Notes under the pieces: generated by a model
What the model saw: the letters and a program-made list of their open reading frames with translations, nothing else
Told to the model about the DNA's origin: nothing
Database searches by the model: none
In this document: positions 1 to 49,649 of the stretch, piece after piece
Numbering within the stretch: the stretch's first letter is position 1
How the letters are laid out: each line of letters starts with the position of its first letter
Program-made: the position numbers and the translations under genes
DNA from: Bacillota bacterium
GTDB lineage: Bacteria; Bacillota; Sulfobacillia; JAMDAP01
NCBI GenBank assembly: GCA_050260815.1
Contig: JBLNCQ010000070.1
Span: 10,518 to 74,517, forward strand
Direction of reading: 5' to 3'
Length of the DNA stretch: 64,000 bases

Positions 1-400
1 AGATCATCGTCGGGCGCAGGATAGTATAGGGGACACCCGACGCTCGGATCGCGTCCTCTGCCGCTAGGTACCCAGCAGCCGCAGAGCGGTATTTTGAGAA
101 GGCCCCGGTGGTGGTAACAAATACCGCCCTGGGGATCCGCTCAATAACGCACGCGGTGGCGACGTTTGGTGATGTCAGGGGATGCGCCATCGAGATCACG
201 ACGTCCGCGCCGCGCACCGCTCCACGGCAGAAATCAGCGTTGTAAACGTCACCCGCCAACGTCCCACAATCAGGGAATAGCGCCCGTTGTTCATTCCGGT
301 GGACGACGGCGCGCACCTCAAGACCCCTATTGATTAGGCGCCGCACCACGCGCTGCCCAGTAAACCCGGCAGCTCCAGTGATGGAGATCAAACCCGTCAC
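1..400 (-). CDS. NAD-dependent epimerase/dehydratase (SDR) family protein, start-proximal part only; the gene runs off the window start
   Basis: Not in the ORF track because it runs off the edge. The minus-strand frame from GTG at 400 (alternative TTG at 391) reads VTGLISITGAAGFTGQRVVRRLINRGLEVRAVVHRNE... This is a Rossmann GxxGxxG N-terminus typical of sugar-nucleotide epimerases/reductases. There is an in-frame stop just upstream at 452-454, and the frame is open to position 1. Confidence 0.5.
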   Translation of the reverse strand, partial: MTGLISITGAAGFTGQRVVRRLINRGLEVRAVVHRNEQRALFPDCGTLAGDVYNADFCRGAVRGADVVISMAHPLTSPNVATACVIERIPRAVFVTTTGAFSKYRSAAAGYLAAEDAIRASGVPYTILRPTMI

Positions 401-27774: not shown

Positions 27775-28059
27775 CTATCGCTTCGACAGCTCCTTCAGCA
27801 CGATCCTGTACTTCTCGGCCGTCCTGACAACACGTTCAACGAACTGGGGGGCAACCTTCTTGTTCCAGTCCTTGTCAAGTCCAAGCTCCTTGAGCTGGTG
27901 AGGCGGGAGGTTGACTCCCCGCAACTTCTGGATCATCTCGGTCACGAGGTTCTCCTCCTTCCCGGTCGCTCGTCCGGATGGTGACGGCTTGTGTCCCCAC
28001 TTGTCCCCATCCTTGTCCACAGTATAGCCCCCTTTTGCTACCGTTGCCAATACCAACAT
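27775..28059 (-). CDS. hypothetical small protein (94 aa) with a KGG-type motif near the N-terminus
   Basis: The N-terminus VAKGGYTVDKDGDKWGHK carries a KGG-type motif, as in KGG-repeat stress proteins. A helical C-terminal part (MIQKLRGVNLPPHQLKELGLDKDWNKKVAPQFVERVVRTAEKYRIVLKELSKR) looks protein-like. There is a terminator downstream. Confidence 0.45.
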   Translation of the reverse strand: MLVLATVAKGGYTVDKDGDKWGHKPSPSGRATGKEENLVTEMIQKLRGVNLPPHQLKELGLDKDWNKKVAPQFVERVVRTAEKYRIVLKELSKR

Positions 28060-40227: not shown

Positions 40228-41517
40228 CTAGTGGTCCGGGGTTTCAGGGGCGTCCGCTTCGGCGGATTCCTCCTCCGGGCCCTCCCTTGCGTCGTCCGGG
40301 GCGTCAATCGACGGGGTATCCGCCGGCTCCGCTTCCTCTAGACCCAAGTCTGTCTGCTCGTCGCGGTCTTCGGTCTCCGCTGCCGGGCCATCAGGCTCGG
40401 CGCGTTCCGGTTCGGACGGCGCCTGCTGGGCGCCCTCCAAGTGGGCGGGGGCTGACGAGGCATCGTCCTGCTCGTCGCCTTCCTCGCGGGCGGCGGGCAC
40501 CGTCTCGTTTCGCTGCTCAGCCGCGCTGCCGGATTCCCCATCCGCGGTACCGTCGGCGGATCGGTCCTCCGGGTCGTCACGCCCGCTGTCGCCGTCGTTG
40601 GGGCCTTCCGCCTGGGCACTCTGATCAACCCGCTGGCCCGCAGGGTAGAGGTCGCTGGGGTCCATCCCCGCCCCGCGGAAGAAGTCGGCCAGGCTCTGGC
40701 CGCGCAAGGCCTCCTCGGAGTAGAGCACGCCCCTGCCCGTCAGCTCCCGTTTCACGGCTTCCCGGTTGACGGAGAGGCGGTCGAGCTGGGCGTCCTTGCG
40801 AAGGCTGGCGGTGGTCTGCGAAACGGCCACAAAACCGCTCAGGCCCTTGTCCTTCAGGCGGGTGGCGATGTCGCGCTGCACGGCGGCCGGATCCGGCCCC
40901 TCCCCACCTGTGAGGGAGACGACCGCCGCCACTACCACGTTGTCACGGTCGGGCCCCAGATAGCCAAAAGCCGCTGCCTGGTCGATCACGCGGTTGACAG
41001 CTTCATCTAGAGTCAGTCCCTTTACCGGCTGGGCCTCCAGAACGCGTTGGGCATCATGGTTGAGGGCGGTGCTCTGCAGCACCTCCCCCTGCCGATCCAC
41101 CTCCAGCTCCAGGCTGGGGTTGATGTCGATGGCTACTACGGCCACGGGCCGGGGCAGCAGAACCCGCGGCAGAACGGTGAAGGCCAGGACGGCCGCCGTC
41201 GCCAGCGCGAACCCTGCCCGCGCCCACGTGGCCGGGCCAACGCGGGCGTGCAGCCACGATTCCGCCCAGCTCCGGGCCGGTCGGTCTGCCGGGGCGTCCT
41301 CGGCGGCTCCTCCCTGCTGCGCCACGGCTGCCTCCGGAGGAGGCCAGGGGAGTTCAAGTTCCCTGCCCCGCCAGGCCCGCAGGACCTCGACAGGCAGTTC
41401 CGACTCGGCGGCGGGCAGGTGGCCCCGCAGGAACTTCAGGGAGACGGTGCGAAACTCGCCCTCCCGGGTCATGAGGACGGCCTGGTCGTCCAACACCTGC
41501 GCCAACAGGCATTTCAT
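40228..41517 (-). CDS. rsgI: anti-sigma-I factor RsgI-like. It has an N-terminal RsgI_N domain, one TM, a juxtamembrane folded segment and a long acidic disordered C-terminus.
   Basis: N-terminus MKCLLAQVLDDQAVLMTREGEFRTVSL matches the RsgI_N pattern G.V.EV.D.YAVVLT.DGEF. TM is GFALATAAVLAFTVL. The last 130 aa are very D/E/A/P-rich. It overlaps sigI by 4 nt. Confidence 0.7.
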   Translation of the reverse strand: MKCLLAQVLDDQAVLMTREGEFRTVSLKFLRGHLPAAESELPVEVLRAWRGRELELPWPPPEAAVAQQGGAAEDAPADRPARSWAESWLHARVGPATWARAGFALATAAVLAFTVLPRVLLPRPVAVVAIDINPSLELEVDRQGEVLQSTALNHDAQRVLEAQPVKGLTLDEAVNRVIDQAAAFGYLGPDRDNVVVAAVVSLTGGEGPDPAAVQRDIATRLKDKGLSGFVAVSQTTASLRKDAQLDRLSVNREAVKRELTGRGVLYSEEALRGQSLADFFRGAGMDPSDLYPAGQRVDQSAQAEGPNDGDSGRDDPEDRSADGTADGESGSAAEQRNETVPAAREEGDEQDDASSAPAHLEGAQQAPSEPERAEPDGPAAETEDRDEQTDLGLEEAEPADTPSIDAPDDAREGPEEESAEADAPETPDH

Positions 41518-42299
41518 AGGGCCCGTCCCCCCTCTTCCCCGGTTTGACCTGGCGAGGCCTCGCCGTTCGATGCCACCGTGCCGGTCGGCTCCAGCTTAAT
41601 GAAGCCCTTCAAATGGGTGTAGTCGTCGGTCCCCAGGATCAGGGCTACGGCGATGATGTACTTGCGCCCGGTCTCCAGCACCTTGCGGCTGAGGCCGGTG
41701 ACCCCCTGCAACTGCTTGATGGGCAGTTGGCCCTTACGCGTGAGGCTGCGCATGAGGGCCGCGTCCGAGGCCAGCCGTGCGGCGGCGCGCTGCAGGGAGA
41801 GGCGCGTATCCCGGTGGCGGGGACAGATTACGCCCAGCTCCGCCAGGGACGTGCCGTATCGTCTCAGGGCCAGATCGTAGCGCGCCAGGTCATCGGCCCG
41901 GTCCGCCATGTCCTCCTGCTCCCGATAAGCCGACGCGGCTGGCCCTGCCTCCAGGGGCGCGATCGCCCCGTCGTCGCCCTCCTCATCGGGGACGGCGCCG
42001 TCCAGCAACAGGGGCGCCTGTGCCGGCTGGCGGCGGAACCAGTCGACCAGCCGGTGGTGAATGACCATACTCGCGTGCCCAAGGAAAGACCTACCCGCCT
42101 CCGGGTTGAAGGTGTCGATAGCCTCGTTGAAGGCCAGCAGGCTCACGCTCAGTTCGTCGTCGTTGTGCCAGTCCAGGGGGCGGCGGCAGACCCTGGACGC
42201 GGCCTGCCTGATAAACGCCCGATGCCGGCTGATCAGCTCTTCCCGGGCCTGCTCGTCGCCGTCCTGCGAGTGGCGCAGCAGGTCCATCAGGACCGTGTC
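41514..42299 (-). CDS. sigI: RNA polymerase sigma factor SigI
   Basis: MDTVLMDLLRHSQDGDEQAREELISRHRAFIRQAAS...DDELSVSLLAFNEAIDTFNPEAGRSFLGHASMVIHHRLVDWFRR is highly typical of SigI region 2. Start taken at the internal Met with RBS AAAGGTGGGGAG; the track ORF's 96-aa N-extension was rejected. Confidence 0.75.
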   Translation of the reverse strand, partial: DTVLMDLLRHSQDGDEQAREELISRHRAFIRQAASRVCRRPLDWHNDDELSVSLLAFNEAIDTFNPEAGRSFLGHASMVIHHRLVDWFRRQPAQAPLLLDGAVPDEEGDDGAIAPLEAGPAASAYREQEDMADRADDLARYDLALRRYGTSLAELGVICPRHRDTRLSLQRAAARLASDAALMRSLTRKGQLPIKQLQGVTGLSRKVLETGRKYIIAVALILGTDDYTHLKGFIKLEPTGTVASNGEASPGQTGEEGGRAL

Positions 42300-42732
42300 C
42301 ATAGCTCTCCCCACCTTTCCATCCGACGAGCCGCCCTCCGTTTCGGGGGGCACCCGGCCGCGGCTCTCTCCACTAGCCGGCCGTCTTGGACCCGCTCCGT
42401 CACCCGGTCGCGCGAACGCAAAAACCGGCAAGCATGCCGAAGGCCTGGTTGCCGGTCGAATGGCGGGTCGGGAATCCGCCCCTTGCGGGCGGCGCCGAAT
42501 AACGCCTTGGCTGCGGCAACCGGCTGTCCTGGCCTCCCCGTCCGCCCCGACTCCCCTTGGGAGCCGGCTGGCGCGCTTTACCCGCATCCAGCAGGCAATG
42601 AGGCTGTAGACCCATGGCTTTGCGCCCCCGAGCTTTCACCCGGGGTGGCCCTTTTCGGTTTTCCGGCTATACGCATTCGACGGAAAGGGGTAAATTCCTT
42701 CCGTTTGAGGCAGAAAGTTCCTGCTAGTGTCG

Positions 42733-43722: not shown

Positions 43723-44354
43723 AACAGGGAATCAGCGTGACCACGTTCTACTTCGAAGATGAGGGACGCCACCACATGAAAAAGGCCGCCCAGTTGGCGG
43801 CTAAACGGGGCAAGGATCTCGCCATTAAGCACTTTGTAGTCTTCACGCGTGACGGTGAAGGCGCCGTACTCCTGAAGGATCTCCTTCAGCCATCGGACGC
43901 ATCAGTCGTGGCTGTGACTTTCCCGTACAAGCACCCTCTGTTTGTCCCTGATGAATCAGGAGAGTATCGGGACTTGATTCCTGAAACGTCAGTTCCAAAG
44001 ACCGTCAAGTACCTGACGGACCGAGGAATTGAGTTGGTCCGCGGAACAGCGCCGTTTACAGAGGGTTTCTTCATCCCGGGAGTCCGGGATCCCAAACTTG
44101 AAGGCATACGGTACGCCCTGCAACTGTTCTCAAGCGGTCTCCATCTATGCGTCCAGGCGGTAGCTATGGCGACAGACGCCGGGGCTATTGAGCCAGGTGA
44201 TGAAGTAATCGCCATGTCGGCCGACACCGCAATCGTGGCGCGAGCATCCTCTAGCCGTTACGTGTTTCACCCGACGGAGGGGATGGAGATTCGCGAGATA
44301 ATCTGCAAGCCTAGGCAGCTAACTCTCAGGGACGGAGAGAGGCGGGGGCGCTAG
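43719..44354 (+). CDS. hypothetical alpha/beta protein (211 aa), translationally coupled to the upstream gene
   Basis: The TTG start overlaps the upstream stop (cTTGA). Alternating hydrophobic beta-strand/helix pattern (HFVVFTRDGEGAVLL, VVAVTFPYKH, GDEVIAMSADTAIVARAS). Faint resemblance to pyruvate-kinase C-terminal-like alpha/beta domains, unverified. Confidence 0.5.
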   Translation: MKQGISVTTFYFEDEGRHHMKKAAQLAAKRGKDLAIKHFVVFTRDGEGAVLLKDLLQPSDASVVAVTFPYKHPLFVPDESGEYRDLIPETSVPKTVKYLTDRGIELVRGTAPFTEGFFIPGVRDPKLEGIRYALQLFSSGLHLCVQAVAMATDAGAIEPGDEVIAMSADTAIVARASSSRYVFHPTEGMEIREIICKPRQLTLRDGERRGR

Positions 44355-44718
44355 CCCCCGCCTCGTGTTTATCATTGTTGCTGGCTTGTCCCCGCGACGG
44401 GGACCCCGCTGTGCCCGCCGGTGGCAGCGTAAAAGGGTCGCCGCCAGCGTCCAAAAACCTCTCGTAACGGTGAACCCACTCAAGAGCGTCGAACTTCGGC
44501 ACCTGGGCGCTGTAATCAAAGTAGTTCTCGCGAAAGCTGCGGTAGAATTCGAGCGTTTCAATGTGGTACTTCCGCTCAAATTCAATCAACCGATTCCGCT
44601 GGAAAGTGAGGTCGTCAACAACACGAACTACCCCCAACCGGATCAGGTCCGCCTCAGAAATCTCAACGCCCGAATCAAGCAACTTTCTCAGCTCTTCAAC
44701 GCTTGTCATGGAGATCAC
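44326..44718 (-). CDS. hypothetical protein (about 127-130 aa), convergent with and tail-overlapping the previous gene
   Basis: Low-GC, protein-like N-terminal 95 aa (MTSVEELRKLLDSGVEISEADLIRLGVVRVVDDLTFQRNRLIEFERKYHIETLEFYRSFRENYFDY...). The C-terminal 30 aa is low-complexity and runs through the terminator hairpin and into the neighbour, so the 3' end is uncertain. Confidence 0.4.
   Translation of the reverse strand: MISMTSVEELRKLLDSGVEISEADLIRLGVVRVVDDLTFQRNRLIEFERKYHIETLEFYRSFRENYFDYSAQVPKFDALEWVHRYERFLDAGGDPFTLPPAGTAGSPSRGQASNNDKHEAGASAPASLRP
44355..44394 (+). terminator. intrinsic terminator of the two-gene unit
   Basis: GGCGGGGGC gcta GCCCCCGCC (9-bp stem; the stop codon sits in the loop), followed by TCGTGTTTATCATTGTTG. 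Confidence 0.55.
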
Positions 44719-44866
44719 CTCACTCCACTAAGGGAAAGGGCACTTCGTCAAGTCTCAGCCAGAATCCTGCTACTGTCCCCTGAAATCTACGATTAGCCTC
44801 TCCAGAAGTAGAACTGGCATTCACTCTATCGCCAAGTGCCAAGATGGTCAAGTAATAAATTGCCTA

Positions 44867-47797
44867 TTAGTACCTCAGCATCCTCGCCACCAGGGCCGCG
44901 CCCTGGGCTCGCGTCAGGCTGCCGCTGGGGTTATAGATCATCCGCCCGCCTTCCACGTAGCCCGTGACCAGCCCCTTCTCCTCCAGCGCCTGCACGGCGG
45001 ACCGGCCCGCGTACGAGCCCAGGTCCGTCAGGTTGCTGTGGAATCCGGCGCTGGGGGCACTGAGCCGCAGGGCCGCGGCGATGAGCTGCGCCGCCTCACC
45101 CCGGGTGATGGGATCCTGGGGGTGGAAGGGCGACACCAGGATCTGCCCCGCCCCGGGCTGGCCCGCCTGGTCGGGCGGCAGGGAGGTCGGATCGATGTTC
45201 ACCAGCTGCCCCTCCGCCTCGTCCACGAGTCCGGCCAGCAGGCCCTTTTCCTCTAACGCCTCCACGTAGGGCTTGGACCAGTGGCCGTTCAGGTCGCTGA
45301 TGCGGCTGCTGAAGTTGACCGAGGGCTGGGTCAGGGCCAGGTAGCGGGCCACCATGGCGGCCAGCTCCCCTTTCAGCAGGGGCAGGTCCACGCCGAAGCG
45401 ACCGTCCGGCAGGCCGTTGACCATGTTGGCGGCGGCGATGGCCTGGATGTCGGTCCGGGCCCAGTTGGTGGCCGTGTCGCTGAAGGACGGCTGCGGCAGG
45501 GCCGGCGACGGCCTGGCCGCCACGGCGTAGAGGTAGCCGTCCATGGATCCCACGTAGGCGGTGTAAGTGCCTGCGAAGCCGCTGCCGGCTGTCGACGGGG
45601 TCGGCGCCGCGGTAGGCGTCCCAAAAATGAAGTTGTCACCCAGGGCGTAGGTCCAGAGGACCTGGCCGGTGGTGGGGTTCTCGCTCACCAGGCGGCCGCT
45701 CAGGCTGCCCACGACCACGTCGCCGCCCTGCCCAAAGTCGACCGGGCTGGAGTCATACGTGGACCAGCCCGACGAGGCCTTCCCCTGAATCTGTCCGGTG
45801 AGGGGGTCCAGGGTGAGGGCGCTGCCGTCCGAGGTGCCCACCAGCAGGCTGCCCGCGCGAAGCTGCGGGCTGGAGAAGCTGGTGCCCAGGCTGGATGTCC
45901 AGAGGGCGGTGCCATCGTCCGGGTTGAGCGCCCGCAGCCCGATGGACCCGGTCTTGGCGTCCTGCGGCGTGGTCACGAACAGGCGGCCGAAGCCGTAAAT
46001 GGGCGAGCCGTTCGATGGCGAGTAGTAGATGTCACGGCCCAGGGCCTGGGTCCAGCGGACCCGGCCGGTCACTGCATCCAGGGCGTACAGGTTCCGGTCC
46101 CACGCGCCCACGTAGACCAGGCCGCGGCCGTAGGCCGGCTTGACGCGTATGGCGTCACCGGCGGTGAAGTGCCAGCGCTCGCTGCCGTCCGACGCCTTGA
46201 GAGCGTAGAGATTGTGGTCGGTGGAGCCGATGTAGACGGTGTCACCCACTACCAGCGGCGCGCCCACCACGGAGCCCTGGGTGGCGCGCGACCAGACCAG
46301 GCGGCCATTGGCGGCATCAAGGGCGTAGACGCGCCCGTTCGCCGAGCCGAAGTAGAGGCGGCCGTTGGCCAGGGTGGGGCCGGAGATAATCGCCCCGCCG
46401 GTCGAGAAGACCCAGGCCTGCGTGCCCTTGTCGGCGCGAACGGCGTAGAGACGGCCGTCCGACGAGCCAACGTACACCAGCGACCCGTCCGTCGCGGGCT
46501 GGCCCTGGATGCCGCCGCCGGTGGCGAAGCGCCAGCGCAGGGTCGGCACGCTGTCGAAGAGCGGCCCGTCGGAGACGGCGCCGTTTGTGCCGCCGGCCGC
46601 CCCGTCGCTCCCGGCCGGCCGCAGGTAGCCGTCCAGCCGGATCTCGACGTGGTCGACGTAGCGCTTGCCCGCCGGGTCATAGGCCTGGACGTAGAGATCG
46701 TGGATGCCCGGCGGCAGGCCCTTCAGGTCGATGGAGCCCGTGCCGTTGTACGTACCCTCCGCCCCGTAGGCTACGGGGACGTCAAGATTCTGCCACGAGC
46801 CCGCGTCCAGGCGGTACTGCGCCTTGTCAGGCGCCTGCTCAACGAAGCCCGTGAGCTGATACTTGAAGCTCAGCGTCTGCGTGGCCGGGCCCTTGACGGT
46901 CGTCCCCGTGACCGGCGAGGTGATGCGCAGCAGTTGCCGCTGGGTGGGCCTGGTCAGCGGGATCGTGGCGGCCAGCTCAGGCTGGGCGCCCGCCACCTGG
47001 TTGTAGATCCTGGCCTCACCGCCCTCCACCTGGATGACCTTGAAGCCGGCGTCCATGACGGCGGCGGTCATGAAGGCGGGGATGCCGTTCACGCTCCACT
47101 GCAGGTTCGTGTGGCCGTGGCCGGAGAACAGGGCCACCACGTTATACGGTTGCACGATGTCCAGGAAGTCCTGGTCGTTGTCCAGGAAGCGGCTGGGCGT
47201 GTACCCGATGGGATGATGGCTGAAGACCATCACCGGCGTCGAGGTGCCCACCTTCTTCAGGTCGGCGGCCAGCCAGTCCAGCATGGCCTTCTCCAGGTGG
47301 CCGTGGGTCTCGGCGCTGATGGACGTGTCCAGCAGCACGAAGTGGATGCCGCCCTGATCGAAGGACGAGTAGGGCTGGCCGAAGCGGGCGGTGAAGCCCA
47401 TCTTGCCGGCGTCCGACCAGCGGGCATCGTGGTTGCCGGGGACGTGGTAGACGGGAATGTTGGCGTCCCGCCAGGGCTTGATCATCTGCTGGTAGAGGTC
47501 ATAGTGGTGGGGCAGGCCGAACTCGGTCACGTCCCCGCCGTTGATAATAAAGGCGGGCCGCGGGTTGTTGGCCAGCACCTGGTCCACAACCTTGGGCATG
47601 TTGGTGTTGCCGGCGCTGGACCCGGCGTGCGGGTCGGTGATGGTGACGAAGGTGAAGTCGTCCGCCGCCAGGGCGGTGCGGGGCCGGAACAAGCCGGGGC
47701 CCGGCGCCAGGATGGAGCCGAAACCCATGACGAACAACAAGGCCAGGGCCGTACCCGCCGCCAGCAGCCGGGCCGGCCTGCGGAGCCGTTGAAGCAT
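44867..47797 (-). CDS. S-layer-anchored multidomain protein: calcineurin-like metallophosphoesterase, PQQ-repeat beta-propeller and three C-terminal SLH domains
   Basis: 976 aa. Signal peptide. Phosphoesterase motifs ITDPHAG, GGDVTEFG, GNHDARW and SGHGHTN. There are many copies of the PQQ-like repeat (G.LYA.DA.TG...W). SLH domains begin FSDTATNWARTDIQAIAAANMVNG..., ISDLNGHWSKPYVEALEEKGLLAG... and LTDLGSYAGRSAVQALEEKGLVTG... Confidence 0.85.
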   Translation of the reverse strand: MLQRLRRPARLLAAGTALALLFVMGFGSILAPGPGLFRPRTALAADDFTFVTITDPHAGSSAGNTNMPKVVDQVLANNPRPAFIINGGDVTEFGLPHHYDLYQQMIKPWRDANIPVYHVPGNHDARWSDAGKMGFTARFGQPYSSFDQGGIHFVLLDTSISAETHGHLEKAMLDWLAADLKKVGTSTPVMVFSHHPIGYTPSRFLDNDQDFLDIVQPYNVVALFSGHGHTNLQWSVNGIPAFMTAAVMDAGFKVIQVEGGEARIYNQVAGAQPELAATIPLTRPTQRQLLRITSPVTGTTVKGPATQTLSFKYQLTGFVEQAPDKAQYRLDAGSWQNLDVPVAYGAEGTYNGTGSIDLKGLPPGIHDLYVQAYDPAGKRYVDHVEIRLDGYLRPAGSDGAAGGTNGAVSDGPLFDSVPTLRWRFATGGGIQGQPATDGSLVYVGSSDGRLYAVRADKGTQAWVFSTGGAIISGPTLANGRLYFGSANGRVYALDAANGRLVWSRATQGSVVGAPLVVGDTVYIGSTDHNLYALKASDGSERWHFTAGDAIRVKPAYGRGLVYVGAWDRNLYALDAVTGRVRWTQALGRDIYYSPSNGSPIYGFGRLFVTTPQDAKTGSIGLRALNPDDGTALWTSSLGTSFSSPQLRAGSLLVGTSDGSALTLDPLTGQIQGKASSGWSTYDSSPVDFGQGGDVVVGSLSGRLVSENPTTGQVLWTYALGDNFIFGTPTAAPTPSTAGSGFAGTYTAYVGSMDGYLYAVAARPSPALPQPSFSDTATNWARTDIQAIAAANMVNGLPDGRFGVDLPLLKGELAAMVARYLALTQPSVNFSSRISDLNGHWSKPYVEALEEKGLLAGLVDEAEGQLVNIDPTSLPPDQAGQPGAGQILVSPFHPQDPITRGEAAQLIAAALRLSAPSAGFHSNLTDLGSYAGRSAVQALEEKGLVTGYVEGGRMIYNPSGSLTRAQGAALVARMLRY

Positions 47798-48043
47798 GTT
47801 ACGCGTTGTAGAACCCTCCCCCGATATGGAAAGGCCAGACCCGCGGTTCAGGGCCGCGGGTCCAGGCTGTCCTTGCTAGTTGTAGAGACGGGCGGAATGC
47901 TCAAAGGTTCCGCCTGCTCCCGCTTTTACCAGTCATTTCGTGCTCTTCCAGATGGGTGTGTCCGTTGCATTGGCCGGGTCGACGCGAGACGTACGCAGTG
48001 GCCCCCCTGTTGTCCCCATTCGTCCTCTTTTGTCCCCGTTCGG

Positions 48044-48073
48044 TTGCATTTGTCCCGGGCGGTCGGCTATACT
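48044..48073 (+). promoter_or_regulatory. sigma-A-type promoter candidate preceded by three 20-bp direct repeats (48006-48062)
   Basis: TTGCAT - 18 nt - TATACT. The upstream units are CCTGTTGTCCCCATTCG, TCCTCTTTTGTCCCCGTTCG and GTTGCATTTGTCCCGGGCGG, all sharing TTTGTCCC. Confidence 0.35.
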
Positions 48074-48079
48074 CAAGGC

Positions 48080-48196
48080 GAAAGGCGCCCGCTGGGCGGG
48101 CGCCTTCCCCGAGGCAGGCAACGCAGCCTGTAGGTGAACCTACTGTGGATGGTTACCGGGTTCTAGGCGCCTTCACGGGGCGCCTAGAACGTTTTT
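48080..48196 (+). ncRNA. candidate small RNA (about 117 nt) bounded by the predicted promoter and an intrinsic terminator
   Basis: 5' hairpin aaggcgcccg ctggg cgggcgcctt (48082-48106). 3' terminator CTAGGCGCC ttcacgg GGCGCCTAG AACGTTTTT (48163-48196). No credible ORF. Speculative. Confidence 0.3.
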
Positions 48197-48456
48197 CGCC
48201 CTGGTGAGGGCGCCGATTCTTGAGCCAGGCAACCACAATCATAGCGGTCCCTTTCAGAACCTCCACGATGATGGCCGTCAGGTCAAAGCCCAACCGTTCC
48301 CACCTCCCTCCGCAGAACCCGTGGTGGACACGTTGTTAGCCAACGGTCCACCCACAGGTGCGCGCACCGCCCCGCGCGCGGAGAGAGGAGGCTGGGAGGG
48401 TTTGTCCCCTCGCCTCACTTTGATGCTAACATGTGAACGTCCGTTCGGAAAGGCGA

Positions 48457-48483
48457 ACAGAGGCCGCTTGGCCTCTGTTTTTT
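48457..48483 (+). terminator. second plus-strand intrinsic terminator in the non-coding region
   Basis: ACAGAGGCC gctt GGCCTCTGT followed by TTTTT, a textbook rho-independent terminator with no plus-strand gene upstream. Confidence 0.5.
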
Positions 48484-48540
48484 CATGCGTATGGGAGGCC
48501 CGGGGTGCTCTGTAACATTGGGGCTCGCCATAAACAGCAT

Positions 48541-48569
48541 GACCCCGCACGACCCACCCGTGCGGGGTC
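48541..48569 (-). terminator. hairpin downstream of the HD-GYP gene
   Basis: GACCCCGCAC gacccaccc GTGCGGGGTC (10-bp stem), 16 nt after the stop at 48585. The downstream tract is only moderately U-rich. Confidence 0.35.
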
Positions 48570-48584
48570 ACAGCACCTCAAACC

Positions 48585-49649
48585 CTACAGCTCCGCCGGC
48601 CCGATGATGGACAGGTCCGACCCGGCCAGGTCCACGACAATCGGCGTCTGGCTAAGGCGGCGACCGGCGGGATCGCGCATCAGGCGCACCTGCGGGCGGT
48701 AAAAGTCGGCGACGTTCACGGACACCACCAAGGCCACGGAATGGTCGCTCAAACGCACCACGGTAGCTGGTGGATAGGGCACCACAAAGCTGGTCAGCCG
48801 GCGGATGAAGATCTCGTCCAGCTTGGTCCCGGCCTGCTCGTGCAGGATGCGCAGCCCGGCCTCAGGGCTGAGCCGGCTGCGGTAAATGCGGTCGCTGGTG
48901 ACGGCGTCGTACACGTCGGCCACGGCCACCAGCTTGGCATATTCGATGATGTCCTGGCCCTTCAGGCCGCGCGGGTAGCCGGTGCCATCGAGCCGCTCGT
49001 GGTGCTGGAAGGCCACATGGGCCACCATCAGCCCCACGTCAAATTGGCTGCGAAGGGTGTTGAACCCCAGTTCCGCGTGCTTCTTGACCTGCTCGAACTC
49101 CGGCGCGGTCAGCTCACCCTGCTTCTGCAGGATCTCCTGCGGAACCAGGCACTTGCCGATGTCGTGCAGGAGGGCCCCGGTCCCCATCTCCAGAAGCTGG
49201 CCCCGGCTGTATCCCAGGGTGCGGCCCACCATCAGGGACAGGATGGCCACATTCACCGAGTGGGCGAAAGTATACCCGTCGAGCGACTTCAAGTCGATCA
49301 TGCCGACGACCAGGTCCTTGGCCGCCATGATCTCGTCCACCAGGTTCTCCACGGCGCGACACACCGATGTCAGGTCCGGCAGCCTCTCCTGGGGAATCTG
49401 CGACATGACCTTGTGGATGACCTGCACGGCCTCCATACGCGTCTCCTGCTGCACCACCGTGGGAAGGTCAATGTCGTCGGCCACGCCGTCGCTGACAAAG
49501 ACCGCCGTGTGGCCGAACTCCTGCAGTTTCTTGATGTACGAGCCCTGCAGGGTGACGCCGGCGGACAGCAGAACACGACCGTCCGGTGAATAGACGGTCT
49601 TGGCCAGGCGCATTCCGGATTCGATATGCGGCAAGTCTACGACTCTCAT
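48585..49649 (-). CDS. HD-GYP domain c-di-GMP phosphodiesterase-type protein with N-terminal sensory domain
   Basis: 354 aa; HD motif ALLHDIGK, HHERLDGTGYP (the GYP motif), metal-binding histidines. N-terminal roughly 120-aa uncharacterised domain. Confidence 0.85.
   Translation of the reverse strand: MRVVDLPHIESGMRLAKTVYSPDGRVLLSAGVTLQGSYIKKLQEFGHTAVFVSDGVADDIDLPTVVQQETRMEAVQVIHKVMSQIPQERLPDLTSVCRAVENLVDEIMAAKDLVVGMIDLKSLDGYTFAHSVNVAILSLMVGRTLGYSRGQLLEMGTGALLHDIGKCLVPQEILQKQGELTAPEFEQVKKHAELGFNTLRSQFDVGLMVAHVAFQHHERLDGTGYPRGLKGQDIIEYAKLVAVADVYDAVTSDRIYRSRLSPEAGLRILHEQAGTKLDEIFIRRLTSFVVPYPPATVVRLSDHSVALVVSVNVADFYRPQVRLMRDPAGRRLSQTPIVVDLAGSDLSIIGPAEL

What the first reader, a model, noticed from the sequence alone, without database searches (positions are those of the whole stretch)
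47798..48584. 0.8-kb gene-free region with three 20-bp direct repeats, a good promoter, two plus-strand intrinsic terminators with no gene, and a candidate sRNA
There is no credible ORF between the PQQ-SLH gene and the HD-GYP gene, and both flanking genes are minus-strand. On the plus strand I see three tandem 20-bp units built around TTTGTCCC (48006-48062), spaced at two helical turns. They run into TTGCAT-18-TATACT, so a predicted transcript would start near 48080. The predicted RNA begins with a perfect GC hairpin and ends at a hairpin+U-tract at 48163-48196. A second, textbook terminator sits at 48457-48483, and another hairpin at 47838-47862. Phased direct repeats directly upstream of a -35 suggest a response-regulator-controlled small RNA or leader. 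The minus-strand ORF 47933-48121 encodes a peptide loosely similar to the N-terminus of the 27775-28059 protein and shares the GGGGACAA repeat with it, so a small paralogous peptide is an alternative reading.
Basis: seen in the sequence. Interest (0 to 1): 0.55.

Follow-up and report, generated by a model that had tools for sequence, protein, structure and literature searches.

The report
Candidate type I toxin–antitoxin cassette
The "gene-free" spacer holds a conserved 440-bp cassette: a 46-residue membrane-type peptide gene on the minus strand and a convergent ~117-nt antisense RNA over its 3' end, laid out like Bacillus type I toxin–antitoxin pairs but unrelated in sequence to any described family.

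Summary
The claim of "no credible ORF" is wrong.

Window 48030-48470 is a cassette found in four distinct lineages. Close relatives lack it: HD-GYP and PQQ/SLH are 96 bp apart in a Symbiobacteriia MAG.

Minus strand:
- An extended -10 promoter.
- A ~345-nt, very structured mRNA (z = -8.4) whose Shine-Dalgarno is locked in a conserved anti-SD helix.
- A TTG-initiated 46-aa ORF (48293..48153) with a hydrophobic helix and a +9 basic tail.
- Codons 2-31 give dN/dS 0.15-0.57, with no indels.

Plus strand:
- TTGCAW-18-TATACT is the only promoter-like site conserved on either strand.
- It would drive a ~117-nt four-hairpin RNA (48080-48196). Its terminator lies inside the last 14 codons of the ORF and is kept by compensatory changes.

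This matches the txpA/RatA and bsrG/SR4 layout. Neither the peptide nor the RNA matches any Pfam, NCBIfam, PADLOC, PHROG or Rfam family. Toxicity and transcription are untested.

Other points:
- The 20-bp repeats are weak and are not conserved across the family.
- The 62-aa ORF is truncated in all relatives.
- The 48456-48485 hairpin is a conserved insulator next to HD-GYP.
- The 47838-47862 hairpin belongs to the PQQ/SLH leader.

The parts
48030..48470 (-). Conserved cassette as a whole: small ORF, its mRNA signals and the convergent antisense RNA gene
   Evidence: It aligns at about 77-84% identity with L053, L050 and L051/L052/L057, and similarity stops at both ends. It is absent from the same intergenic site in L054/L055, where the spacer is 96 bp.
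48423..48431 (-). Predicted promoter of the peptide mRNA: an extended -10, TGTTAGCAT, with no clear -35. The start site is inferred near 48416.
   Evidence: TGnTAnnAT is kept in all lineages: TGTTAGCAT, TGTTAGCAT, TGATACCAT and TGATAAGAT. It is inferred from sequence only.
48072..48416 (-). Predicted peptide (toxin-like) mRNA, about 345 nt
   Evidence: MFE is -199 kcal/mol with z = -8.4 against shuffles. In the consensus structure 95.5% of cells are paired. Ten pairs show changes on both sides, against 3.7 in shuffles (0 of 500 reach it) and at most 5 in slid controls.
48378..48391 (-). Anti-Shine-Dalgarno segment CCTCCTCTCTCCGC in the 5' UTR
   Evidence: It pairs with 48300-48313 (I8). Helices 3 and 4 of the consensus (14 bp) are 100% paired in all four lineages, with UA/UG/CG transitions that preserve pairing.
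48300..48313 (-). Shine-Dalgarno region (GCGGAGGGAGGTGG; the GGAGGTG core lies 7 nt before the TTG start), sequestered in the fold
48153..48293 (-). 46-aa ORF with a TTG start: MGFDLTAIIVEVLKGTAMIVVAWLKNRRPHQGEKRSRRPVKAPRTR. It has a hydrophobic helix followed by a basic tail.
   Evidence: Homologues are 60-80% identical in L053, L050 (P0001) and L051 (P0002). Codons 2-31 give dN/dS 0.15-0.57, with substitutions in the order position 3 > 1 > 2. There are no indels inside the ORF, while both UTRs carry 1-4-nt indels. The best 19-aa Kyte-Doolittle window scores 1.78-2.36 and the tail has net charge +9 to +11.
48082..48106 (.). GC hairpin. On the minus strand it is followed by TTTCGCCTT and is the likely terminator of the peptide mRNA. 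On the plus strand it is the 5' stem-loop (SL1) of the antisense RNA.
   Evidence: Two pairs show compensatory changes. In L050 three pairs are G-U in the minus-strand reading but A-C in the plus-strand reading, so the hairpin fits the minus-strand RNA better.
48044..48073 (+). Promoter of the antisense RNA: TTGCAT, 18 nt, TATACT
   Evidence: Both hexamers and the 18-nt spacing are kept in all lineages while the spacer sequence differs. It is the only such site conserved on either strand.
48080..48196 (+). Predicted antisense small RNA (antitoxin-like), about 117 nt with four stem-loops, fully complementary to the 3' end of the peptide mRNA
   Evidence: MFE is -64.4 kcal/mol, z = -4.3. The consensus fold has 4 compensatory pairs, and the closing pair of SL3 appears as G-C, C-G and U-A. 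There is no Rfam match.
48111..48133 (.). Most conserved 23-mer (plus strand GAGGCAGGCAACGCAGCCTGTAG). It contains SL2 with its loop. On the mRNA it contains GCCUC, which is predicted to pair with the mRNA 5' end GAGGC (48416..48412).
   Evidence: It is identical in the window, L050 and L051/L052 and matches 22 of 23 positions in L053. Helix 1 of the consensus fold is 100% paired. A role in loop-loop recognition is inferred.
48160..48196 (+). Intrinsic terminator of the antisense RNA (12-14 bp stem and a T5 tract), lying inside the last 14 codons of the ORF
   Evidence: The C-G to U-A double change in L051 costs two amino-acid changes (S to F, R to K), and the T5 tract is invariant. dS collapses to 0.04-0.20 in codons 32-46.
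48456..48485 (+). Hairpin with a T6 tract at the cassette boundary next to HD-GYP: a likely two-way insulator/terminator
   Evidence: It is kept with a different stem sequence in L051 (CAGGGGTCGC/GCGGCCCCTG), and also in L053, always with the T tract on the window-plus strand. It is absent from L050, which sits in another context.
48004..48062 (.). TTGTCCC(C)/TCGTCCTC units at 10/20-bp spacing, upstream of and inside the antisense-RNA promoter. Function unknown.
   Evidence: A rearranged array is present in L053, it is partial in L050, and it is absent in L051/L052.
47838..47862 (-). Hairpin in the leader of the PQQ/SLH gene. It is not part of the cassette.
   Evidence: It is conserved, with a changed loop and flanking stem bases, in the cassette-free relatives L054/L055.
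48538..48572 (-). Terminator-like hairpin directly after the HD-GYP stop codon. It is specific to the window and not part of the cassette.
   Evidence: It is absent from L053 and L051.

Best explanation
The region carries a self-contained type I toxin-antitoxin-like cassette at about 48030-48470. It was inserted between the HD-GYP and PQQ/SLH genes in a narrow clade of Symbiobacteriia-like Bacillota.

Minus strand: an extended -10 promoter would produce a ~345-nt mRNA. Its 5' UTR folds back so that an anti-SD segment sequesters a strong Shine-Dalgarno. A rare TTG start opens a 46-aa peptide with one hydrophobic helix and a highly basic tail. This is the toxin-like component, presumably acting on the membrane.

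Plus strand: a convergent promoter (TTGCAT-18-TATACT) would produce a ~117-nt, four-hairpin RNA ending at the 48160-48196 terminator. This RNA is perfectly complementary to the last ~117 nt of the mRNA, including the last 14 codons. It would act as the antitoxin.

Proposed mechanism: the RNA pairs with the mRNA, probably starting at complementary hairpin loops in the near-invariant 23-mer. The resulting duplex marks the mRNA for cleavage (RNase III type), alters the 5' fold, or both, keeping translation off.

Shown here: the anatomy, its conservation, the coding signature, the RNA covariation, and the presence/absence pattern among relatives.

Inferred only: that either RNA is transcribed, that the peptide is toxic, and how the antisense RNA acts.
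For: 1. The ORF is real.
- Homologous peptides occur in three other lineages.
- Codons 2-31 give dN/dS 0.15-0.57 with third-position bias, and replacements are conservative (V/I/L/M in the helix; K/R/H/N/Q in the tail).
- The ORF has no indels, while both UTRs have several.
- A GGAGGTG core lies 7 nt before the TTG start.
- All four peptides have a 19-aa window above the Kyte-Doolittle 1.6 threshold and a tail of net charge +9 to +11.

2. The mRNA has the hallmarks of type I toxin mRNAs as listed in PMC8594479 and PMC6562991.
- Its length is about 345 nt.
- It has a 5' stem-loop, an SD/anti-SD helix, a predicted 5'-3' pairing, and a terminator stem-loop.
- All are kept in four lineages: 95.5% of cells paired, and 10 double-change pairs against 3.7 in shuffles.

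3. The antisense RNA gene is real.
- It has the only conserved promoter-like site on either strand.
- Compensatory changes occur in SL1, SL3 and the terminator, and the T5 tract is invariant.
- Synonymous change is suppressed exactly where the RNA's terminator overlaps the ORF (dS 0.04-0.20, against 0.37-1.31 upstream), and L051 pays two amino-acid changes to keep one base pair.

4. The layout matches the Gram-positive families txpA/RatA, bsrG/SR4, bsrE/SR5 and yonT/SR6, where the asRNA lies on the 3' side and overlaps both mRNA and ORF (PMC8594479; PMC3834814).

5. The cassette behaves as an accessory element.
- It is absent from the same site in L054/L055.
- L050 has a different downstream neighbourhood.
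Against: - There are no expression data for either strand.
- There is no toxicity test.
- Only four independent sequences exist, so covariation statistics are weak. The structure was derived from the same sequences it was tested on.
- The hydrophobic segment carries a Glu and a Lys in three of the four lineages.
- In L051 the homologous start codon is lost. An in-frame GTG only 3 nt after GGAGG, or a far-upstream GTG, must be used instead.
- The peptide tail may be shaped mainly by the terminator on the other strand.
- The peptide matches no known toxin family, and the RNA matches no Rfam antitoxin family.
- Only one copy was seen per locus, none elsewhere in the 64-kb window, and none in plasmid, phage or viral collections.
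- The plus-strand promoter is weak by consensus.
Confidence: 0.62

Rival explanations
1. The anatomy is the same, but the peptide is not a toxin. It would be an ordinary small membrane protein, for example a regulator or subunit of a membrane complex, whose synthesis is tuned by a cis-antisense RNA and a structured leader.
For: - All the sequence evidence for the ORF and the antisense RNA fits this reading equally well.
- The cassette is single-copy and sits in the chromosome.
- Glu and Lys lie inside the hydrophobic helix.
- There is no similarity to any described toxin.
Against: - The combination seen here is characteristic of type I toxin genes (PMC8594479, PMC6562991): a 14-bp SD-sequestering helix, a TTG start, a fully complementary convergent RNA, terminators on both flanks, and patchy presence/absence among close relatives.
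- That combination would be unusually elaborate for a benign 46-aa protein.
Confidence: 0.22
2. One reading: a stand-alone plus-strand small RNA or leader in a gene-free region. It would be switched on by a response regulator binding the phased TTGTCCC repeats just upstream of the -35.
For: - The promoter and terminator of the plus-strand RNA are conserved.
- TTGTCCC cores sit exactly 20 bp apart, with intervening TCGTCCTC-like units at 10 bp.
- A similar but rearranged array is present in L053.
Against: - The region is not gene-free.
- The repeats are missing in L051/L052, although promoter, RNA and ORF are all retained there. They are only partial in L050.
- The array lies in the fastest-diverging stretch between the window and L053.
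- The motif is not enriched in the window.
- No regulator gene is linked to the cassette.
Confidence: 0.08
3. The minus-strand RNA is itself non-coding and the ORF is incidental. The locus would be a pair of convergent structured RNAs, or a decaying remnant of an inserted element.
For: - In about 63% G+C DNA, stop-free stretches of 45-107 codons occur in several frames of the cassette.
- The C-terminal third of the ORF evolves as RNA rather than as protein (dN/dS of 1 or more in most comparisons).
- The start codon is not conserved in L051.
Against: - Codons 2-31 show purifying selection and codon-position bias.
- There are no indels between codons 2 and 46, while the UTRs have many.
- The SD sits at ideal spacing and a dedicated anti-SD helix is conserved.
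- The hydrophobic-helix-plus-basic-tail pattern is kept in all four lineages through 20-40% amino-acid change.
Confidence: 0.06
4. The 62-aa minus-strand ORF (47933..48121) encodes a small paralogue of the 27775-28059 protein.
For: - The ORF exists in the window.
- It shares GGGGACAA-encoded Gly-Asp-Lys with the N-terminus of the other protein.
Against: - The frame ends after 17-20 codons in L053, L050 and L051.
- It spans the antisense-RNA promoter and the repeat array.
- It has no hydrophobic core and no family match.
- The shared octamer occurs at chance frequency.
Confidence: 0.01

Closest known systems
bsrG/SR4 (also bsrE/SR5 and yonT/SR6) type I toxin-antitoxin systems of Bacillus subtilis
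   Same: - A small hydrophobic peptide is encoded on a short, structured mRNA whose SD is sequestered in a GC helix.
- The antitoxin is a convergent RNA of about 100-180 nt, complementary to the 3' end of the mRNA and to the end of the ORF.
- The antitoxin has several stem-loops, and recognition starts at hairpin loops (PMC3834814, PMC6562991, PMC5848175).
- Here the overlap is about 117 nt, the RNA has four stem-loops, and the SD helix is 14 bp.
   Different: - There is no sequence similarity in peptide or RNA.
- The host is a high-G+C Symbiobacteriia-like organism, and no prophage context was seen.
- The SD helix is much longer than the 4-5 bp described for bsrG, bsrE and txpA.
- The peptide has a 22-aa tail of net charge +9 rather than a short lysine stretch.
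- A 5'-3' pairing is predicted.
- Toxicity, RNase III cleavage and translational control are untested here.
txpA/RatA (B. subtilis skin element)
   Same: [quoted passage not shown] The overlap includes the end of the ORF, and the proposed outcome is degradation of the duplex (PMC6562991, PMC3531473).
   Different: - Rfam families gave no match to the plus-strand RNA even at E-values up to 10.
- The peptide is unrelated.
- The cassette lies in a chromosomal intergenic site rather than in a prophage-like element.
hok/Sok and aapA/IsoA (Gram-negative type I systems)
   Same: The toxin mRNA is predicted to be locked by a 5'-3' long-distance pairing plus SD sequestration (PMC8594479). Here GAGGC at the 5' end pairs with GCCUC near the 3' end in all four lineages.
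   Different: - In those families the antisense RNA targets the 5' part of the mRNA.
- Activation there requires 3' processing.
- Here the antisense RNA covers the 3' end, including the 3' partner of the long-distance pairing.
- No evidence on processing is available.
par (fst/RNA II) of Enterococcus faecalis pAD1
   Same: The RNAs are convergent and share a terminator region, the toxin is a small hydrophobic peptide, and direct repeats lie in the locus (PMC6562991, PMC8594479).
   Different: - In par the direct repeats are transcribed into both RNAs and mediate pairing at the 5' end of the toxin mRNA.
- Here the TTGTCCC repeats lie upstream of the predicted start of the antisense RNA and are not conserved.
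- The Fst tail is acidic, whereas this tail is strongly basic.

Membership tests
Type I toxin-antitoxin systems (general class) | A small (under about 60 aa) hydrophobic peptide gene | tested here: met
   The ORF encodes 46 aa. Its best 19-aa Kyte-Doolittle window scores 1.85, and 1.78-2.36 across the homologues.
Type I toxin-antitoxin systems (general class) | An antisense RNA gene whose product is complementary to the toxin mRNA | tested here: inconclusive
   A conserved convergent promoter and terminator delimit a ~117-nt RNA that is fully complementary to the mRNA 3' end. Transcription itself could not be tested.
Type I toxin-antitoxin systems (general class) | A short structured toxin mRNA (150-400 nt) with SD/anti-SD sequestration and 5' and terminator stem-loops (PMC8594479) | tested here: met
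   The predicted mRNA is about 345 nt with z = -8.4. The SD helix is 100% paired in four lineages, and the 5' hairpin and terminator hairpin are conserved.
Type I toxin-antitoxin systems (general class) | The peptide is toxic when overproduced, and the RNA neutralises it | not testable with these tools
   This needs induced expression with and without the antisense RNA.
Gram-positive 3'-overlap families (TxpA/RatA, BsrE-G-H, YonT, SprG/SprF) | [quoted passage not shown] | tested here: met
   The predicted RNA at 48080-48196 overlaps the mRNA 3' end and ORF codons 33-46 plus the stop codon.
Gram-positive 3'-overlap families (TxpA/RatA, BsrE-G-H, YonT, SprG/SprF) | Sequence homology of the peptide or the antitoxin RNA to a described family | tested here: not met
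   - No Pfam hit reaches threshold; the best is DUF6405 at 14 bits against a cutoff of 25.
- NCBIfam, PADLOC and PHROGs gave no significant hit: PADLOC nothing, the others only sub-threshold matches with E-values of 0.09 and 0.2.
- No Rfam antitoxin family matches at E-values up to 10.
- An exhaustive phmmer search of 1.84 billion representatives found only two unnamed homologues.
   The promoter is kept in all lineages. The repeats are absent in L051/L052, partial in L050 and rearranged in L053.

The most novel reading that the evidence does not exclude
This is the founding member of an undescribed type I toxin-antitoxin family, and the first one proposed for the Symbiobacteriia lineage. In it, the toxin's basic C-terminal tail and the antitoxin RNA's terminator are written on opposite strands of the same 40 nt. 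The invariant 'GEK' of the peptide is the complement of the RNA's U tract, and base-pair covariation in the terminator forces amino-acid changes. The antisense RNA also carries a copy (GAGGC) of the mRNA's own 5' end. Binding would therefore displace the mRNA's 5'-3' lock, linking 3'-end recognition to the SD-sequestering fold.
Probability: 0.35. Interest if true: 0.6.

Novelty: new member of a known kind. Interest (0 to 1): 0.5.

Why it matters
Type I toxin-antitoxin loci are almost never annotated. Their peptides are tiny and their antitoxins are family-specific RNAs, and known families come from a few well-studied groups.

This would be a sequence-unrelated family in a poorly studied, high-G+C branch of the Bacillota. 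Its boundaries are well defined, and cassette-free relatives provide a natural empty site for comparison.

It is also a compact example of one DNA stretch under dual constraint, coding a peptide tail on one strand and a terminator hairpin on the other. That makes it useful for studying overlapping coding and RNA selection.

For annotation of this genome, it replaces an "empty" 0.8-kb spacer with:
- a small protein gene,
- an sRNA gene,
- two insulating terminators,
- the leader of the PQQ/SLH gene.

Tried and rejected
- **Rfam.** Gathering-threshold scan of the whole window, and a permissive scan (E-values up to 10) of 47700-48700. Nothing credible appeared in the region. The best hit was Scr5676 at 28 bits against a gathering score of 56.
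- **tRNA/tmRNA.** None found.
- **Other cassette copies in the window.** blastn found none. nhmmer over all 61 held sequences found only the known copies.
- **Exact look-up of the HD-GYP protein.** It is not on record.
- **Genome scan with HD-GYP.** The only close relative, L001 (93% identity), has a contig that ends inside the gene, so it was uninformative.
- **Metagenome scan with the conserved 20-mer.** It gave 0 hits. L053 differs from it at one base.
- **Plasmid, phage and viral collections.** Nothing found by DNA or peptide searches.
- **Profile search with the three-peptide alignment.** No new members.
- **More distant HD-GYP homologues (49-59% identity).** They are not syntenic and carry no cassette.
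- **A second plus-strand promoter feeding the 48456-48485 terminator.** Only a TTGTCC-19-TAACAT match was found, confined to the window and L053 and not conserved elsewhere. It was not adopted.
- **Flanking direct repeats as insertion scars.** CCGTTCGG occurs at 48036 and 48441, but L053 does not keep it, so it was rejected as chance.
- **GGGGACAA as a genome-wide operator.** It is not enriched. The copies at 27990-28025 are a coding repeat, and the copy at 44386 is part of a hairpin.
- **The plus-strand 103-aa and 83-aa ORFs.** They have no family hits, and 1-, 2- and 4-nt indels fall within them in relatives.
Full report
**What is in the sequence**

The region lies between two minus-strand genes:
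- a metallophosphatase-PQQ propeller-SLH gene at 44867..47797;
- an HD-GYP gene at 48585..49649.

- TTGCAT-18-TATACT at 48044-48073.
- A perfect 11-bp GC hairpin at 48082-48106.
- A 12-14-bp hairpin at 48160-48190 followed by GTTTTT.
- A 10-bp hairpin at 48456-48479 followed by T6.
- A hairpin near 47838-47862.

Taken alone, these features are not statistically striking.
- The promoter scan reports no site. TTGCAT matches TTGACA at only 3 of 6 positions.
- Terminator-like sites are at shuffle level: 2 found, 1.1 ± 1.0 expected.
- Only two of the three 20-bp repeats are alike (80%). The third shares just TTGTCCC in register.
- TTGTCCCC is not enriched in the window.
- Rfam gives nothing in the region.

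**The missed ORF**

The ORF list contains a minus-strand ORF at 48293..48153. It has a TTG start and encodes 46 aa: MGFDLTAIIVEVLKGTAMIVVAWLKNRRPHQGEKRSRRPVKAPRTR.
- It has a hydrophobic helix followed by a very basic tail.
- A GGAGGTG core lies 7 nt upstream of the start.
- A 14-nt segment further upstream (48378-48391) is complementary to the SD region at 48300-48313 (I8).
- The plus-strand hairpin-plus-T-tract at 48160-48196 lies inside the last 14 codons of this ORF.
- The GC hairpin at 48082-48106, read on the minus strand, is followed by TTTCGCCTT.

This suggested a convergent mRNA/antisense-RNA pair. I then tested that idea with relatives.

**Relatives**

A word-indexed search and an exhaustive phmmer search of 1.84 billion representatives found only two unnamed homologues, P0001 and P0002. 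A back-translated metagenome scan added a third locus. The loci are:

| Locus | Source | Peptide identity | Context |
|---|---|---|---|
| L053 | JGI, 17-kb contig | 80% | Syntenic: HD-GYP, cassette, PQQ/SLH |
| L050 | Logan | 70% | Different downstream neighbourhood |
| L051 = L052 = L057 | ENA/Logan | about 60% | HD-GYP upstream |

DNA similarity runs from about 48470 to about 48030 and stops at both ends.

Orthologous HD-GYP genes place the organism near uncultured Symbiobacteriia. In the 74%-identical relative L054/L055, the HD-GYP stop and the PQQ/SLH start are only 96 bp apart and the cassette is absent. More distant homologues are not syntenic. No copy was found in plasmid, phage or viral collections. 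The cassette is therefore an accessory insertion with a very narrow known distribution.

**Is the ORF coding?**

Evidence for coding:
- Across the four lineages, codons 2-31 show substitutions in the order position 3 > 1 > 2, and dN/dS is 0.15-0.57.
- Replacements are conservative: V/I/L/M in the helix, and K/R/H/N/Q in the tail.
- There is no indel between codons 2 and 46, while both UTRs contain 1-4-nt indels.
- All four peptides keep a 19-aa Kyte-Doolittle window of 1.78-2.36 and a tail of net charge +9 to +11.

Caveats:
- Stop-free stretches are common in this G+C-rich DNA.
- L051 has lost the homologous TTG. It must use an in-frame GTG 3 nt after GGAGG, or a distant GTG.
- In codons 32-46 the pattern reverses: dS falls to 0.04-0.20 and dN/dS is about 1 or more.

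That last stretch is exactly where the plus-strand terminator lies. In L051 a C-G pair of the stem has become U-A, at the cost of S-to-F and R-to-K changes. The invariant peptide motif 'GEK' is the complement of the T5 tract. The tail is therefore under dual constraint, and RNA dominates.

**The two RNAs**

The predicted plus-strand RNA (48080-48197 as folded; predicted 3' end about 48196):
- It folds into four stem-loops (MFE -64.4 kcal/mol, z = -4.3).
- The consensus fold has compensatory changes in SL1 (two pairs), SL3 (G-C, C-G and U-A at one pair) and the terminator.
- Its promoter hexamers and the 18-nt spacing are kept in all lineages although the spacer sequence changes. A scan of the whole alignment on both strands finds no other conserved TTGNNN-16..19-TANNNT.

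The predicted minus-strand mRNA (48416..48072):
- It is extremely structured (-199 kcal/mol, z = -8.4).
- In the four-lineage consensus, 95.5% of cells are paired.
- Ten pairs carry changes on both sides, against 3.7 in column shuffles (0 of 500 reach it) and at most 5 in slid controls.
- The 14-bp helix that buries the SD is paired in every lineage, with U-A/U-G/C-G transitions.
- The 5' end GAGGC pairs with GCCUC at 48115..48111.
- In L050 three pairs of the 48082-48106 hairpin are G-U on the minus-strand RNA but A-C on the plus-strand RNA. That hairpin therefore serves the mRNA, as its terminator, at least as much as it serves the sRNA.
- The mRNA promoter appears to be an extended -10, TGnTAnnAT, conserved in all lineages.

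The most conserved stretch of the whole cassette is the 23-mer at 48111-48133. It includes SL2 with its loop and the 3' partner of the 5'-3' pairing. The two RNAs are exact complements here and each forms the hairpin. Loop-loop contact at this point is therefore the natural way for pairing to begin. That step is inferred, by analogy with SR4/bsrG (PMC3834814).

With only four sequences, and a structure derived from those same sequences, these statistics are supportive rather than conclusive.

**The other features**

- **Hairpin 48456-48485.** It sits at the HD-GYP-side boundary of the cassette. L053 keeps it, and L051 has a different stem sequence. An A-run always precedes it on the minus strand, which gives a T tract on the plus strand. 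L050 lacks it. I read it as an insulator. It would stop plus-strand antisense read-through from entering HD-GYP, and less efficiently stop HD-GYP read-through from entering the peptide gene. Its function is inferred.
- **Hairpin 48572..48538.** This is a window-specific terminator-like hairpin right after the HD-GYP stop codon.
- **Hairpin 47838-47862.** It lies on the minus strand in the PQQ/SLH leader. The cassette-free relatives conserve it, so it predates the cassette and is not part of it.
- **The repeats.** They form a 10/20-bp-phased set of T(T/C)GTCC(C/T)C units overlapping the sRNA promoter spacer and the roughly 40 bp upstream of it.
  - L053 has a longer, rearranged array, L050 has remnants, and L051/L052 has none, although promoter, RNA and ORF are intact there.
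  - The array lies in the fastest-diverging part of the window/L053 comparison.
  - Its function, if any, is unknown. It might modulate the sRNA promoter or the downstream PQQ/SLH promoter, or it might be a product of replication slippage.
- **The 62-aa ORF.** It is cut to 17-20 codons in every relative. Its GGGGACAA link to 27775-28059 reflects a coding DKDGDKWG repeat there.

**Comparison with known systems**

The layout matches what T1TAdb and the B. subtilis literature describe for Gram-positive type I toxin-antitoxin families, namely TxpA/RatA, BsrE/G/H, YonT and SprG/SprF (PMC8594479, PMC6562991, PMC3834814, PMC5848175):
- a 150-400-nt toxin mRNA with a 5' stem-loop, SD/anti-SD sequestration and a terminator stem-loop;
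- an antisense RNA on the 3' side that overlaps both the mRNA and the ORF;
- recognition that starts at loops;
- duplex cleavage by RNase III, and in the SR4 case remodelling of the SD helix.

Membership of the class is met for every feature that sequence alone can test. It is untestable for the defining biological feature, which is toxicity neutralised by the RNA.

Membership of any described family fails. No Pfam, NCBIfam, PADLOC, PHROG or Rfam family gives a significant match, and a full-text search found no paper linking type I toxins to Symbiobacterium.

Differences from the Bacillus systems:
- a much longer SD helix;
- a long, strongly basic tail;
- a predicted 5'-3' lock whose 3' partner is covered by the antisense RNA;
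- a high-G+C host.

**Verdict**

The finding is real and is better than "gene-free spacer with orphan terminators".
- The best-supported reading is a new family of type I toxin-antitoxin-like cassette (confidence about 0.6).
- The main rival is the same anatomy encoding a non-toxic small membrane protein (about 0.2).
- It is a new member of a known kind, and I rate its interest as moderate.

Noticed in passing
window 42556-42660 (-): A c-di-GMP-I riboswitch aptamer (RF01051, 38.8 bits against a gathering score of 35). It lies just upstream of, and overlaps the annotated start of, the minus-strand ORF 41514..42587. The conserved part of that ORF (from MDTVLMDLLRHSQDGDEQAREELISRH...) looked to me like a sigma-70/SigI-type factor, but I ran no family search on it. 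An HD-GYP c-di-GMP phosphodiesterase lies 6 kb away.
   Followed up: no
window 44200-44860; L056 5129-5205: A low-G+C patch immediately downstream of the PQQ/SLH gene carries a minus-strand ORF (44326..44718, MTSVEELRKLLDSGVEISEADLIRLG...). In relative L056 a gene with a similar N-terminus (MDTVRRLRELLESGTLTRQDLIDLG) directly follows HD-GYP in place of the cassette. It may be a small mobile or addiction-type gene.
   Followed up: no
window 27775-28059 (-), repeats at 27990-28025: A 94-aa ORF in a lower-G+C stretch contains a 10-bp-phased TGTGTCCCCA/CTTGTCCCCA/TCCTTGTCCA repeat that encodes DKDGDKWGH. The resemblance to the TTGTCCCC units at 48010-48056 seems coincidental.
   Followed up: partly
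window 47798-47900 (-); L054 5066-5161: The PQQ/SLH leader holds a conserved GC hairpin (window 47838-47862). In the cassette-free relative it is followed by TTTGCATTTT just before the SD. It could be the ancestral HD-GYP terminator, or an attenuator in front of the PQQ/SLH gene.
   Followed up: partly
L050 812-967 (-): About 420 bp downstream of the L050 copy of the cassette lies the 3' end of a small gene (…VYLITERRFIVVYRYRNNVCEVLDVVDATFMASHEIRE). To my eye it resembles RelE/ParE-type toxins, but I ran no family search. If so, this copy sits next to another addiction-type gene.
   Followed up: no
window 48402-48432 (+): TTGTCC-19-TAACAT lies on the plus strand, overlapping the complement of the peptide-mRNA -10. 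It is shared only with L053. If active it would give a ~45-nt RNA ending at the 48456-48485 terminator. It is probably fortuitous.
   Followed up: partly
L053 3495-3530 vs window 47797: In L053 the PQQ/SLH ORF appears to start about 40 nt further downstream than in the window, after an inserted stretch. The annotated start of this gene, which has a poor SD (17-nt spacing) in the window, may need checking.
   Followed up: no
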